From: a virus
Taxonomy: Duplodnaviria > Heunggongvirae > Uroviricota > Caudoviricetes
Virus record (IMG/VR): IMGVR_UViG_3300045988_013455
Span: 1 to 43,601 of that record
Strand: one strand, 5' to 3'
Length of the DNA stretch: 43,601 bases
This document shows, piece by piece, positions 11,952 to 20,982 of this stretch. Every line of letters starts with the position of its first letter. Within the stretch, counting starts at the first letter, position 1. The position numbers and the translations under genes are program-made. The notes under the pieces were generated by a model. That model saw only the letters and a program-made list of their open reading frames with translations. It was not told where the DNA came from and searched no databases.

Positions 11952-12235
11952 TGCGCCTTCTCCCGCATTTTCAGAAATACAATCATAGCAGCGCGTAGAG
12001 GGTTCTCGTGCGTACTTTTAGTGAACGATGCAGAGTGGTACGCACGATATGTAAACGTATGCCGGTTAACCGTAACGCATTCAATTGATATGTGATTATC
12101 AATTATTATGGACCATGCATCAGATGGGTTGTTGCAGTAGTCTTTGGCCTTAAACGAATTCAATCCTGAAATTTGCATAATCTCTGCGTGCACACGGCAG
12201 TTAATCTCAAAATCGCCCATTTCTTCATATTTCAT
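11948..12235 (-). CDS. Hypothetical protein (95 aa)
   Basis: ORF in operon; preceded by RBS-like GAGGG. Confidence 0.4.
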   Translation of the reverse strand: MKYEEMGDFEINCRVHAEIMQISGLNSFKAKDYCNNPSDAWSIIIDNHISIECVTVNRHTFTYRAYHSASFTKSTHENPLRAAMIVFLKMREKAQ

Positions 12236-17755: not shown

Positions 17756-17788
17756 TGTTCAATAGTTTGGGATTTTACCGAGTGACTT

Positions 17789-17825
17789 ACGCTGCTACAC
17801 AGCAGCGTATCATTTTTCTCATTTT
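17789..17825 (+). terminator. Rho-independent terminator
   Basis: ACGCTGCT-acac-AGCAGCGT then ATCATTTTTCTCATTTTT. Confidence 0.65.
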
Positions 17826-19008: not shown

Positions 19009-19298
19009 CACTTGCAACTGACATCCTGAAACGAAGTGGCCTTGTGCCGCTGGCACCGGGAGCTAAAACACGGATATACAGGCGTCGCCATAACGCGCTG
19101 TACCCCGAGATTCAGGCCAGACGCAAAGCTGTCCGCGCCTGTGGGTTCCAGAACGGGAAGGCCGTGAATCTCGGTGAGTTCAAGACAAAGGAACGCGCCG
19201 CTATCGCTAATCGGTTATTTAATTACTGGAAATCACTGGGATACGATGATATTCCGACGAAACCACAGAGACGACAATACATCTGGAGACATAAATGA
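18981..19298 (+). CDS. Stand-alone AP2-like DNA-binding domain protein (105 aa)
   Basis: IYRRRHN...KAVNLGEFKTKERAAIANRLFNYWKSLG matches the AP2 pattern of HNH-AP2 endonucleases, without an HNH domain. Confidence 0.4.
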   Translation: MFSMRGEGMTLATDILKRSGLVPLAPGAKTRIYRRRHNALYPEIQARRKAVRACGFQNGKAVNLGEFKTKERAAIANRLFNYWKSLGYDDIPTKPQRRQYIWRHK

Positions 19299-19735
19299 CG
19301 ACTATCGCGTTTGACGGAAAGACAATGGCCTGTGACACCCGTGTTGTGTGCGGGAGTAACTGTTACAACACAGACACAAAGATATACGAGAATGACCATT
19401 TCATAATTGGGGTAGCCGGGGACGCAGGAGTTGGGGTTATGCTAATCCGTGATAATGGCGTACTTAATCCAAAATCATACGACTTCGATTTCGAAGCCCT
19501 TGTGTTCGTGAAAGACACAGAAAAGGTGTATAAAGTCGCGTTCTATAAATCATGGGATTGTGCGCTTAGTTCGGTTATTCCTGTTGCCGATAGCTTCGCC
19601 GCCGTGGGGTCTGGCGCGCCATATGCCCTGGCGGCTATGGAATGTGAGTATTCGGCACATGGTGGCGTAGCCGTCGCTTCAAAGTTTGACCCTAACACCG
19701 GCGGTAAGATTATTACCAAACAACTATTAGGATAA
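19295..19735 (+). CDS. HslV-like Ntn-hydrolase (proteasome beta-subunit-like peptidase)
   Basis: MTTIAFDG... N-terminal Thr after Met; FIIGVAGDAGVGV; AAVGSGAPYALAAME aligns with HslV GSGGPYAQAAARAL. Confidence 0.65.
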   Translation: MTTIAFDGKTMACDTRVVCGSNCYNTDTKIYENDHFIIGVAGDAGVGVMLIRDNGVLNPKSYDFDFEALVFVKDTEKVYKVAFYKSWDCALSSVIPVADSFAAVGSGAPYALAAMECEYSAHGGVAVASKFDPNTGGKIITKQLLG

Positions 19736-19749
19736 TTCCTACCCGTGGT

Positions 19750-19789
19750 ATCCTCCAGTTACTGCATACTTAATACGCACCTGGAGGAT
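19750..19789 (+). promoter_or_regulatory. Stem-loop sequestering the holin RBS (possible translational control)
   Basis: ATCCTCCAG (19750-58) pairs perfectly with CTGGAGGAT (19781-89), which contains the GGAGGA Shine-Dalgarno of the TTG-start holin. Confidence 0.45.
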
Positions 19790-19794
19790 TCATC

Positions 19795-20103
19795 TTGGAT
19801 AAATTTACTGAAACAGTGACAGGCTGGCTCCTGGCCGCCGCACTCGCCGGAGGGGTTATCGGACTACGACAACATAAGTCCGCTATTTCTGGCCCCATCG
19901 ACGGCTTCTGCTTTATTGCAACCGGCTTCACTTGCGCCGTATTTGGCGCACCTCTCGCAGCTCAATGGTTCGGTATCACGGGCGACCGTGAAATCGCGGG
20001 CCTGGGCTTCATTATCGCTATTCTCTGGATGCCTATCTATTCCCGCCTTTCCGGTATCGTCGCCGGAGAATACATTGCACGTCGAGGAGGCCCGGATGAA
20101 TGA
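19795..20103 (+). CDS. Putative holin (three predicted transmembrane segments; TTG start)
   Basis: Hydrophobic stretches LLAAALAGGVIGL, FCFIATGFTCAVFGAPLAA, IAGLGFIIAILWMPIY; directly upstream of endolysin. Confidence 0.55.
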   Translation: MDKFTETVTGWLLAAALAGGVIGLRQHKSAISGPIDGFCFIATGFTCAVFGAPLAAQWFGITGDREIAGLGFIIAILWMPIYSRLSGIVAGEYIARRGGPDE

Positions 20104-20368
20104 GTTATTCTGGTTTGTCGTAATGCTGGCAATGGGCGCTTCGTCCCTGTTCAACGTGTATAATGAACGCGTGGACGACGGGCTGTTCGGGCGTGTTCTC
20201 TATATCCTGACTGCTATCGTCTGTGCCGCCGGATGTATTCACCTGTTACAGGGCAGCATGTCGCCTACGCTGCCTGAGACCTTAATCACATTAGTTGCAC
20301 TGCGCCAGATTCGCCAGGCGTGGCTGTCATACGGAGGGCATAAGCGTGTCTCGAAACATTTCAGATAA
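20096..20368 (+). CDS. Second small membrane protein of the lysis cassette (holin/antiholin-like; two TMDs)
   Basis: RBS GAGGAGG then ATG; LFWFVVMLAMGASSLF and VLYILTAIVCAAGCIHLL. Confidence 0.4.
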   Translation: MNELFWFVVMLAMGASSLFNVYNERVDDGLFGRVLYILTAIVCAAGCIHLLQGSMSPTLPETLITLVALRQIRQAWLSYGGHKRVSKHFR

Positions 20369-20834
20369 TGGATTGCATTTTACCGCTGCGTTCGAGGGGT
20401 TCCGTGGAACTGCGTATCGTGCTACACCGAACGAGAAGTACCTGACGATAGGCTACGGGCACTATGGGTCAGACGTAACACCGGGTAAGACCATCACGCC
20501 AGGGCAAGGCCTCCTGTTACTGAATCGCGATATGGCTAAAGCCGTAGCTGCGGTTGATGCGGCCGCCCACCATTCATTGACACAGGCACAGTTCGATGCG
20601 GTGTGCGACCTGGTGTATAACGCAGGTGCTGGCGTGATTGCGTCTACTACAGGCACGGGCAAGGCGCTGCGTTCCGGAGATATTGTGACACTGCGGGCTA
20701 AGCTGGCGCTGTTCATCAATCAGAACGGCAAACCGTTACTTGGTCTGCGCCGCCGTACCGCCGGGCGTCTTGCGCTGTTCGACGGTAAACCGTGGCAAGA
20801 GGCTGAAGCTATTGGGCGCGCGGTGAAAGGTTGA
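20346..20834 (+). CDS. Endolysin, GH24 lysozyme family
   Basis: AFEGFRGTAYRATPNEKYLTIGYGH, the Glu...Thr catalytic region pattern of T4/lambda-type lysozymes; GTG start after GGAGGG (track ORF from 20295). Confidence 0.8.
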   Translation: MSRNISDNGLHFTAAFEGFRGTAYRATPNEKYLTIGYGHYGSDVTPGKTITPGQGLLLLNRDMAKAVAAVDAAAHHSLTQAQFDAVCDLVYNAGAGVIASTTGTGKALRSGDIVTLRAKLALFINQNGKPLLGLRRRTAGRLALFDGKPWQEAEAIGRAVKG

Positions 20835-20900
20835 CACCTAAGACTAATCCGACGATACTTAAATCACCTCCTGTTCCATCCCTCTGCTCTCCAGTTTTAT

Positions 20901-20930
20901 CCCGGCCCTGACCCAGCCGGGATTTTTTTT
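20901..20930 (+). terminator. Rho-independent terminator after lysis cassette
   Basis: CCCGGC-cctgaccca-GCCGGG followed by ATTTTTTTT. Confidence 0.75.
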
Positions 20931-20953
20931 ATCTATTTTCTGCAATGACTAGT

Positions 20954-20982
20954 TGACTATTACCTTCGACCCTATTATATTT
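20954..20982 (+). promoter_or_regulatory. Sigma70-like promoter (TTGACT-17-TATATT)
   Basis: TTGACTattaccttcgaccctatTATATT upstream of the 21016 gene. Confidence 0.5.

What the first reader, a model, noticed from the sequence alone, without database searches (positions are those of the whole stretch)
19750..19797. RBS-sequestering hairpin in front of a TTG-start holin
A perfect 9-bp stem (ATCCTCCAG / CTGGAGGAT, 22-nt loop) encloses the holin Shine-Dalgarno GGAGGA, and the holin initiates at TTG. Both features would throttle holin translation and may set lysis timing.
Basis: seen in the sequence. Interest (0 to 1): 0.4.

Follow-up and report, generated by a model that had tools for sequence, protein, structure and literature searches.

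The report
Hairpin hiding the holin ribosome site
A small, strongly conserved RNA hairpin in this Kagunavirus phage buries the ribosome-binding site of its cell-lysis (holin) gene, which also starts at the weak codon TTG; this is a real but familiar way for phages to hold back lysis.

Summary
ATCCTCCAG (19750-19758) and CTGGAGGAT (19781-19789) form a perfect 9-bp stem with a 22-nt loop. The 3' arm contains the GGAGGA Shine-Dalgarno, 6 nt before a TTG at 19795 that starts a holin (phrog_2359).

The window is a Kagunavirus genome. One such stem is not unusual by chance (8 in the window, 5.5 expected). Its placement and conservation are unusual:
- The holin ribosome site is among the three most occluded of 75 gene starts.
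- Across 55 haplotypes the intergenic region is 10-80 times less variable than holin third codon positions.
- The rare arm changes are almost all G·U-compatible on the + strand.

Homologous holins in Dhillonvirus and a metagenomic lineage carry different stems that also end 5 nt before the start codon. Those versions look like intrinsic terminators; the window's does not.

All lineages keep a TGnTAT..T (extended -10-like) motif over the 5' arm. The hairpin therefore probably silences transcripts arriving from upstream, as at T4 lysozyme gene e. That is more than a simple throttle, but no transcription start data exist to confirm it.

This is a new member of a known kind, of moderate interest.

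The parts
19750..19758 (+). 5' arm of the hairpin (ATCCTCCAG), which mimics the anti-Shine-Dalgarno sequence
   Evidence: Invariant in 55 haplotypes except A19757>G in 2 haplotypes, which keeps a G-U pair (nucleotide diversity 0.008).
19759..19780 (+). 22-nt AU-rich loop (TTACTGCATACTTAATACGCAC), unexpectedly conserved
   Evidence: Nucleotide diversity 0.028 against 0.335 at holin third codon positions. In the LSPA1-type Salmonella phages two loop substitutions lengthen the stem to 13-14 bp. The loop is entirely different in lineage L142.
19781..19789 (+). 3' arm (CTGGAGGAT) containing the Shine-Dalgarno GGAGGA at 19783-19788
   Evidence: Nucleotide diversity 0.004. The same GGAGG is annotated as the ribosome-binding site in phage Shashou.
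19790..19794 (+). 5-nt spacer (TCATC) between the stem and the start codon
   Evidence: A 5-nt spacer is kept in the Kagunavirus, L142 and Dhillonvirus lineages. In the Ioannina-type lineage the ungapped stem leaves 7 nt, and 5 nt if a bulged T is allowed.
19795..20103 (+). Holin gene 1 (102 aa, TTG start)
   Evidence: phrog_2359 holin, E = 1e-29. N-terminus MDK aligns with the ATG-start Dhillonvirus homologues.
19746..19754 (+). Candidate extended -10 promoter element TGgTATCCT overlapping the base of the 5' arm. The predicted transcription start is about A19761, inside the loop. This is inferred, not shown.
   Evidence: CGTG and T19749 are invariant while the 'n' position 19748 is polymorphic (G 32 / C 23 haplotypes). 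The motif is kept as TGgTATCCT in L142 and TGaTATAGT in Dhillonvirus. The scan that requires a -35 hexamer does not call it.
20096..20368 (+). Second holin-like gene, overlapping holin 1 by 8 nt (ATGAATGA)
   Evidence: phrog_2508 holin, E = 9e-35. Sequence.
20346..20834 (+). Endolysin (GTG start, overlapping holin 2 by 23 nt)
   Evidence: PF00959 Phage_lysozyme, E = 5e-27.
20899..20930 (+). Strong intrinsic-terminator-like hairpin closing the lysis cassette (ATCCCGGC-9 nt-GCCGGGAT followed by a T run)
   Evidence: Read. The corresponding site is annotated as a terminator in fBC-Eco01 and Shashou.
19295..19735 (+). Upstream HslV-like peptidase gene. Its stop codon lies 14 nt before the hairpin. 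The gene is absent from many relatives.
   Evidence: phrog_1040 and PF00227. Homology of relatives lacking this gene starts at about 19716-19725.

Best explanation
The hairpin is a cis-acting RNA gate at the left edge of the lysis cassette.

Shown or directly computed:
- On any + strand transcript that includes 19750-19789, the 5' arm pairs with the holin Shine-Dalgarno.
- The stem ends 5 nt before a weak TTG start.
- This ribosome-binding site is about 8 kcal/mol harder to open than a typical one in this genome.

Inferred:
- Transcripts entering from the upstream small-gene/HslV operon yield little holin. Because holin 2 and the endolysin overlap the preceding gene, they probably also yield little of the rest of the cassette.
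- The cassette is expressed mainly from transcripts that start inside the hairpin, at about A19761. These would come from a -35-independent extended -10 promoter (TGgTATCCT, 19746-19754) whose hexamer forms the base of the 5' arm.
- Such transcripts lack the 5' arm, so the Shine-Dalgarno is free and output is set only by the TTG codon.

This is the logic of T4 lysozyme gene e, soc, 49 and I-TevI. In related lineages (Dhillonvirus, L142) the same hairpin also carries a U-tract and would terminate upstream transcription. The window's version has lost those terminator features and relies on Shine-Dalgarno occlusion.

I put about 0.8 on the hairpin limiting holin translation in some form, and about 0.4 on the full gate-plus-nested-promoter model.
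For: Occlusion:
- Opening energy is 14.4 kcal/mol, against a median of 6.2 for 75 starts.
- It falls to 6.1 for a transcript starting at 19760-19762. The same comparison gives 14.0 to 2.4 in Dhillonvirus EP23 and 22.5 to 8.4 in L098.
- The 50-nt RNA from 19761 is unstructured (-3.6 kcal/mol, z = +0.3).

Selection:
- Nucleotide diversity is 0.008 in the 5' arm, 0.004 in the 3' arm and 0.007 in the spacer, against 0.335 at third codon positions.
- 494 of 495 stem cells stay paired, derived from the site counts.
- Arm changes are A>G opposite U (L038, L041) and, in L142, C>U opposite G and A>G opposite U. These are tolerated only in + strand RNA.
- LSPA1-type phages lengthen the stem to 13-14 bp.

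Ancestral element:
- Five lineage representatives have stems of 9-14 bp with different sequences ending 5 nt before the start codon (7 nt ungapped in the Ioannina type). Between 0 and 25 of 2000 shuffles match them.

Nested promoter:
- TGnTAT..T is conserved in all four lineages; it is near-consensus (TGATATAGT) in Dhillonvirus.
- The 'n' position is polymorphic while the flanking TG and T are invariant.
- The predicted start falls at or just past the 5' arm in every lineage.
- The mobile conserved block begins at about 19716-19725, roughly -38 to -45 from that start.

Context and precedent:
- There is no other terminator between the upstream genes and the holin, and a strong one lies after the endolysin.
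- The upstream stop codon is 14 nt before the stem, so I infer that terminating ribosomes do not melt it.
- PMC3014915 describes the T4 gene e arrangement.
Against: - No transcription start, 3'-end or translation data exist for any of these phages. The one Kagunavirus RNA-seq study gives only gene-level classes, with lysozyme in the 'middle' class.
- The candidate promoter has no good -35 (TTAGGA, 3 of 6) and has CC at hexamer positions 4-5.
- It is not called by the sigma-70 scan, nor by the promoter predictions annotated in fBC-Eco01.
- The motif is not repeated elsewhere in the genome.
- Conservation of TATCCT is partly explained by its being the stem itself.
- In L142 the computed gain from losing the 5' arm is small (8.7 to 7.0 kcal/mol).
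- The strong conservation of the 22-nt loop is not specifically predicted by this model.
Confidence: 0.4

Rival explanations
1. Constitutive throttle. All holin mRNA carries the hairpin. Ribosomes initiate only during transient opening, perhaps waiting on the AU-rich loop as a standby site. Together with TTG, this sets a slow, steady holin accumulation that times lysis.
For: The same occlusion and conservation data apply. A very strong Shine-Dalgarno at ideal spacing combined with a weak start codon and a hairpin fits a capture-on-opening design. Loop conservation (nucleotide diversity 0.028) could reflect a standby or S1-binding site. Holin translation rate sets lysis time in lambda (bioRxiv 10.1101/2025.05.14.654169). 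This model needs no unproven promoter.
Against: In the homologous Dhillonvirus element a -19 to -20 kcal/mol stem plus U6 sits 5 nt before an ATG with no free Shine-Dalgarno. Output from full-length RNA alone would be very low for a protein needed in thousands of copies (inference). This model does not explain the invariant TG-n-T outside the stem, or why the conserved block reaches about 30 nt upstream of the stem.
Confidence: 0.3
2. The hairpin is primarily a transcriptional element: an intrinsic terminator or attenuator, or a 3'-end stabiliser, for the upstream operon. Overlap with the Shine-Dalgarno is secondary.
For: The homologous hairpins in Dhillonvirus (12 bp, 6-nt loop, T6) and L142 (13 bp, 7-nt loop, TTATTTT) pass the terminator scan. 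The Dhillonvirus one is annotated as a terminator in WF5505. More distant holin homologues (L141, L143-146) have a terminator-like hairpin upstream of a free ribosome-binding site.
Against: The window's version has a 22-nt loop and the tail TCATCTTG (4 T in 8), and fails the scan. The terminator predictions recorded in the fBC-Eco01 annotation do not mark it, although they mark other sites nearby. A terminator does not need its 3' arm to be a perfect GGAGGA 6 nt before a start codon, yet that arm is the most conserved segment.
Confidence: 0.15
3. The hairpin is the docking site of a trans-acting regulator: a phage or host RNA-binding protein, or a small RNA. The regulator would open or lock the structure, as Com does at the Mu mom ribosome-binding site (my recollection) or as T4 RegA-type repressors do (PMC3014915).
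For: The 22-nt loop is about 12 times less variable than synonymous sites within Kagunavirus. A bare hairpin does not require that.
Against: The loop is completely different in L142 and in Dhillonvirus, although the stem geometry is kept. No complementary partner for the loop was found in the genome. Rfam has no match. No candidate regulator was identified.
Confidence: 0.1
4. A chance inverted repeat with no function.
For: Perfect 9-bp inverted repeats are as frequent in the window as in shuffles.
Against: The repeat is conserved in 108 loci and 55 haplotypes, with wobble-compatible changes, stem lengthening in one lineage, and different stems at the same position in other genera.
Confidence: 0.03

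Closest known systems
Translation-initiation-region hairpins of phage T4 genes e (lysozyme), soc, 49 and I-TevI (McPheeters et al. 1986, as reviewed in PMC3014915)
   Same: A lysis gene lies downstream of earlier-expressed genes. The Shine-Dalgarno and/or start codon is sequestered in a helix on long transcripts. A promoter-like element lies in the DNA that encodes the 5' strand, so shorter transcripts would lack the inhibitory arm.
   Different: The gene here is a holin, not an endolysin. The candidate promoter is a sigma-70 extended -10 type, not a T4 late promoter (TATAAATA with gp55). No transcript mapping exists here. Related lineages add a U-tract, so the same hairpin also looks like a terminator.
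Lambda S gene upstream stem-loop controlling the dual start (described in bioRxiv 10.1101/2025.05.14.654169)
   Same: An RNA stem-loop just upstream of a holin start controls ribosome access to a Shine-Dalgarno. Holin translation rate sets lysis time.
   Different: Lambda's structure partitions initiation between two starts (Met1 antiholin, Met3 holin). Here there is a single TTG start and no Met-Lys-Met motif. The holin families are unrelated by sequence: no Pfam family matched, and the PHROG match is phrog_2359.
Rho-independent terminators placed before lysis/late operons (for example lambda tR' upstream of S; my recollection)
   Same: The hairpin sits at the boundary between upstream genes and the holin. 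The Dhillonvirus and L142 versions have a stem plus a U-tract.
   Different: The window's hairpin has a 22-nt loop and a poor U-tract, and it abuts the start codon. No antiterminator was looked for.
Mu mom ribosome-binding-site hairpin opened by Com (my recollection)
   Same: The ribosome-binding site of a late, potentially lethal gene is sequestered in a hairpin.
   Different: No activator protein or binding site was identified here.

Membership tests
RBS-sequestering translational hairpin (T4 gene e type) | Shine-Dalgarno and/or start codon lies inside a stable helix of the mRNA | tested here: met
   GGAGGA is entirely within the 3' arm. The hairpin is -14.2 kcal/mol, and opening the ribosome-binding site costs 14.4 kcal/mol against a median of 6.2.
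RBS-sequestering translational hairpin (T4 gene e type) | The structure, not just the sequence, is maintained in evolution | tested here: met
   Arm changes are G-U-compatible, the stem is lengthened in the LSPA1 type, and Dhillonvirus and L142 have different stems at the same distance from the start codon. A column-based covariation test failed because the stems are in shifted register.
RBS-sequestering translational hairpin (T4 gene e type) | A promoter within or next to the 5' strand gives transcripts that lack the inhibitory arm | tested here: inconclusive
   The TGnTAT..T motif is conserved in all four lineages with suitable geometry. There is no -35, no scan call and no transcription start data.
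RBS-sequestering translational hairpin (T4 gene e type) | Measured reduction of translation from structured transcripts | not testable with these tools
   This needs reporter fusions or toeprinting.
Lambda S-type dual-start control element | Two closely spaced in-frame starts giving holin and antiholin | tested here: not met
   The only alternative start is GTG at codon 8 (19816), and it has no Shine-Dalgarno. The N-terminus is MDKFTETV.
Intrinsic (Rho-independent) terminator | GC-rich stem, short loop (about 3-8 nt) and a U-tract directly after the stem | tested here: not met
   The window has a 22-nt loop and the tail TCATCTTG, and the scan does not call it. The homologous hairpins in EP23 and L142 do meet the criteria.
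Any curated RNA family (Rfam 15) | A covariance-model match at or above the gathering score | tested here: not met
   There are no matches in the whole window.
Holin (identity of the regulated gene) | A small membrane protein encoded next to an endolysin, belonging to a holin family | tested here: met
   phrog_2359 holin, E = 1e-29. It is followed by phrog_2508 holin and a PF00959 lysozyme. Curators of phage Shashou report three transmembrane domains. Function has not been tested experimentally in this family, as far as I found.

The most novel reading that the evidence does not exclude
The roughly 70-nt block at 19725-19797 is a compact three-in-one insulator for the lysis clock. One hairpin has the -10 element of the cassette's own promoter as its 5' arm and the holin Shine-Dalgarno as its 3' arm; in sister lineages the hairpin is also an intrinsic terminator. 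Transcripts from upstream are terminated and/or translationally silent. Only transcripts born inside the hairpin are translated, so lysis timing would depend on one dedicated promoter regardless of upstream read-through. The geometry, with the stem ending 5 nt before the start codon, has been kept across Kagunavirus, a Jerseyvirus subgroup, Dhillonvirus and a metagenomic lineage while the stem sequence was replaced.
Probability: 0.35. Interest if true: 0.55.

Novelty: new member of a known kind. Interest (0 to 1): 0.35.

Why it matters
Kagunavirus and Dhillonvirus phages are widely isolated as therapy candidates against pathogenic E. coli. Latent period and burst size depend on when the holin fires. 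If this hairpin, and the TTG start, set holin output, then single-base changes in a 50-nt element would tune lysis timing in a predictable way.

The cross-genus comparison also gives a natural series that would make the T4 gene e principle testable outside T4. The same position holds a canonical terminator, a G-U-rich hybrid, and a pure Shine-Dalgarno-occluding hairpin.

The underlying principle, a ribosome-binding-site hairpin before a lysis gene, is textbook. A specialist would not be greatly surprised.

Tried and rejected
- Rfam gathering-threshold scan of the whole window: no match.
- Scan of bacterial and archaeal genomes for the holin family: no relatives, so no prophage context.
- RNAalifold on a MAFFT alignment of Kagunavirus, L142 and Dhillonvirus leaders: no consensus structure. 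Sequence homology (CGTGnTAT..TCC and CTGG) puts the two stem types in shifted register. I used a start-codon-anchored stem analysis instead.
- Search for a repeated phage-specific promoter motif (CGTGNTATCCTCC with up to 3 mismatches; TGNTATCCT; TGNTATAGT in EP23): only the holin site matches well, and counts equal chance.
- Search for a sequence complementary to the conserved loop elsewhere in the window: nothing nearby, only scattered 8-9-mers.
- The motif TTAGGATAATTCCTA (19727-19741) looked homologous to the terminator loop of a distant holin relative (L141). A scan of IMG/VR returned more than 119 unrelated contigs, so I treat the resemblance as possibly chance.
- A helix extension GUGG:UCAU predicted by the minimum-free-energy fold: rejected as a conserved feature, because G19748 is C in 23 of 55 haplotypes.
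- Kagunavirus K1B4 RNA-seq paper and its supplements: no transcription starts or per-gene time courses could be used.
- Dual-start holin/antiholin motif: absent.
- Translational coupling through melting of the stem by ribosomes finishing the upstream gene: unlikely, because the stop codon is 14 nt before the stem (inference from geometry).

Full report
**What is there**

The window is a complete or near-complete Kagunavirus (Guernseyvirinae) genome. A 1.6-kb query around the finding matches 127 phage records, mostly Escherichia Kagunavirus, at 83-92% identity.

The sequence at the reported coordinates is exactly as described:
- ATCCTCCAG (19750-19758) and CTGGAGGAT (19781-19789) are perfectly complementary, with 22 nt between them.
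- The 3' arm contains GGAGGA (19783-19788).
- Five nucleotides (TCATC) separate the stem from TTG at 19795.

That TTG opens a 102-aa ORF matching phrog_2359 'holin' (E = 1e-29). It is followed by:
- a second holin-like gene (20096-20368, phrog_2508), overlapping the first by 8 nt;
- an endolysin with a GTG start (20346-20834, PF00959), overlapping holin 2 by 23 nt.

The gene upstream is an HslV-like peptidase (19295-19735).

TTG is the only start codon between the in-frame stop at 19771 and GTG at 19816. It aligns with the ATG of Dhillonvirus homologues that share the N-terminus MDK. The curators of phage Shashou annotated the same TTG and the same GGAGG as the ribosome-binding site.

**Is it more than chance?**

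The hairpin folds at -14.2 kcal/mol (z = -4.6); the 75-nt context folds at -19.6 kcal/mol (z = -3.65). However, perfect 9-bp inverted repeats with loops up to 30 nt are no more frequent in the window than in shuffles (8 against 5.5 +/- 3.4). The stem alone therefore proves nothing.

Position is what is unusual. I computed the free energy needed to open positions -16 to +3 for 75 heuristically called gene starts. The holin costs 14.4 kcal/mol against a median of 6.2, and ranks third. The two higher values belong to probable miscalls: an internal ATG of the portal gene and a 44-codon ORF.

**Conservation**

I collected 108 Kagunavirus-type loci from IMG/VR, metagenomes and GenBank, giving 55 distinct haplotypes over -60 to +309.

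| Segment | Nucleotide diversity |
|---|---|
| Holin third codon positions | 0.335 (86% of sites variable) |
| 5' flank (19738-19749) | 0.090 |
| Loop | 0.028 |
| 5' arm | 0.008 |
| Spacer | 0.007 |
| 3' arm | 0.004 |

Only one stem pair ever varies (19757:19782). It is A-U in most haplotypes, G-U in L038 and L041, and A-C in one haplotype, L125.

LSPA1-type Salmonella phages carry two loop substitutions that lengthen the stem to 13-14 bp (-21 kcal/mol).

A metagenomic lineage, L142, has a holin 67% identical to the window's, also starting at TTG. It keeps the 3' arm, changes the 5' arm to ATCCTCTGG (C>U opposite G; A>G opposite U), has an unrelated shorter loop, and reaches 13 pairs, 5 of them G-U. 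G-U-compatible changes work only in + strand RNA. This argues for an RNA structure and against a DNA palindrome or protein operator.

**An older element**

Dhillonvirus phages (EP23, WF5505, KarlBarth, Sodalis SO-1 and many contigs) encode a homologue about 50% identical to the window's holin, starting at ATG. At the same place they carry a different stem: AGTCCCAGTGAG / CTTACTGGGACT, 12 bp with a 6-nt loop, -19 to -20 kcal/mol. TTTTT and then ATG follow it.

The Ioannina-type Dhillonvirus (L098) has yet another variant.

Anchoring on the start codon, the Kagunavirus, LSPA1-type, L142 and Dhillonvirus stems end 5 nt upstream. The Ioannina-type stem ends 7 nt upstream ungapped, and 5 nt if a bulged T is allowed. 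Matching stems arise in 0-25 of 2000 shuffles.

The Dhillonvirus and L142 hairpins satisfy the terminator scan, and WF5505's annotators call theirs a terminator.

The window's hairpin does not satisfy the scan: it has a 22-nt loop and the tail TCATCTTG. The terminator predictions recorded in the fBC-Eco01 annotation do not mark it either.

More distant holin relatives (FelixO1-like contigs L141, L143-146, and Wc4-1) have a terminator-like hairpin further upstream and a free Shine-Dalgarno.

The window's element is therefore the least terminator-like and the most Shine-Dalgarno-focused member of a family of boundary hairpins.

**A second signal**

MAFFT aligns the Kagunavirus and Dhillonvirus leaders through CGTGnTAT..TCC on the 5' side. 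This motif reads as an extended -10 element:
- TGgTATCCT in Kagunavirus and L142;
- TGaTATAGT in Dhillonvirus, which is near-consensus.

In the 55 haplotypes CGTG and T19749, all outside the stem, are invariant. The 'n' position 19748 is split G 32 / C 23. That polymorphism also rules out the helix extension predicted by the minimum-free-energy fold.

A start 6-8 nt past the hexamer falls at T19760-C19762 in the window, and just past the first nine stem pairs in Dhillonvirus. Such transcripts would lack the inhibitory arm. The computed effect on the cost of opening the ribosome-binding site is:

| Lineage | Full-length (kcal/mol) | Transcript from predicted start (kcal/mol) |
|---|---|---|
| Window | 14.4 | 6.1 (the genome median is 6.2) |
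| EP23 (Dhillonvirus) | 14.0 | 2.4 |
| L098 (Ioannina type) | 22.5 | 8.4 |
| L142 | 8.7 | 7.0 |

Relatives that lack the HslV gene become homologous to the window at about 19716-19725, roughly 40 nt before that predicted start.

Against a promoter:
- the -35 is poor (TTAGGA);
- the hexamer has CC at positions 4-5;
- no scan or deposited annotation calls it;
- the motif is unique in the genome;
- no transcription start data exist.

The only Kagunavirus RNA-seq study reports gene-level classes, with lysozyme in the 'middle' class.

**Genomic logic**

The lysis cassette lies at the far end of a rightward run of small genes that starts near the divergent region at about 16-17 kb. A strong terminator (20899-20930) follows it, and after that come consensus-like promoters.

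Nothing except this hairpin separates the upstream genes from the holin. The upstream stop codon is 14 nt before the stem, so terminating ribosomes should not melt it (inference). Read-through transcripts will therefore carry a folded hairpin.

**Mechanism**

I commit to a gate of the T4 gene e type (PMC3014915). Long transcripts are translationally silent for holin and, through gene overlap, probably for the rest of the cassette. Transcripts born inside the hairpin are translated at the modest rate a TTG allows. I put 0.4 on this.

It is simpler, but it does not explain the TG-n-T conservation. It also fits poorly with the Dhillonvirus version, where a stem of about -20 kcal/mol plus U6 precedes an ATG with no free Shine-Dalgarno.

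The remaining rivals are:
- a primarily terminator or attenuator role, 0.15 for this window;
- a trans-acting factor using the conserved loop, 0.1;
- chance, about 0.03.

Across these models, I put about 0.8 on the hairpin limiting holin translation in some form.

**Comparison with known systems and novelty**

RNA structures that restrict lysis-gene translation are classical. T4 e, soc, 49 and I-TevI are reviewed in PMC3014915. The lambda S upstream stem-loop, and the dependence of lysis time on holin translation rate, are described in bioRxiv 10.1101/2025.05.14.654169.

This element is not a member of the lambda dual-start class, because it has no second start. In this window it does not meet terminator criteria. 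It matches no Rfam family.

It is best described as a new member of the RBS-sequestering-hairpin kind. It has an interesting cross-genus history and a possible nested promoter. Interest is moderate, at 0.35.

Noticed in passing
window 20096-20103 and 20346-20368: The three lysis genes overlap. The holin 1 stop overlaps the holin 2 start (ATGAATGA). The endolysin starts at GTG 23 nt before the end of holin 2, behind GGAGGG. Two of the three cassette genes use non-ATG starts. The holin 2 ribosome-binding site is also fairly occluded (11.1 kcal/mol, rank 6 of 75).
   Followed up: partly
window 20831-20981: The intergenic region after the endolysin contains a promoter-like site overlapping the endolysin stop (TTGACA-17-GATACT), a strong terminator-like hairpin (20899-20930, ATCCCGGC-9 nt-GCCGGGAT plus a T run) that the scan missed because of its 9-nt loop, and a near-consensus promoter-like site (TTGACT-17-TATATT, 20953-20981).
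   Followed up: partly
window 19716-19741: There is a mosaic junction here. Relatives with a different upstream gene become homologous to the window at about 19716-19725, so unrelated upstream ORFs all end inside the conserved lysis-module leader (C-termini ...LLG* or ...LLR*). The leader contains a small inverted repeat TAGGA-TAAT-TCCTA (19728-19741) that spans the stop codon. The common G19730>A variant breaks it.
   Followed up: partly
window 19727-19741; L141 about 545-565: TTAGGATAATTCCTA resembles TTAGGTTAATTCCTA (14 of 15 bases) in the loop of the terminator-like hairpin upstream of a holin homologue only 36% identical, from a FelixO1-like contig. A database scan shows the 15-mer is common by chance (more than 119 unrelated contigs), so its significance is unclear.
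   Followed up: partly
window 19295-19735: An HslV/proteasome-like peptidase gene (phrog_1040; PF00227, E = 5e-5) sits directly upstream of the lysis cassette. It is present in only a subset of Kagunavirus genomes.
   Followed up: no
window 12006-12047: This is the longest perfect inverted repeat in the window (10 bp, TCGTGCGTAC / GTACGCACGA, 22 nt between the arms). It lies inside the minus-strand replication-gene block.
   Followed up: no
window 17788-17809: A terminator-like hairpin (TACGCTGCT-ACAC-AGCAGCGTA followed by TCATTTTT) lies inside the rightward small-gene run, about 2 kb upstream of the holin. It suggests the run is split into several transcription units.
   Followed up: no
L142 (metagenome contig ERZ28594344 scaffold_189) 1163-2013: This uncultured Kagunavirus-like lineage has a holin 67% identical to the window's, also TTG-started, followed directly by the endolysin with no second holin gene. 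Its best match among GenBank phage records is only 78% identical.
   Followed up: partly
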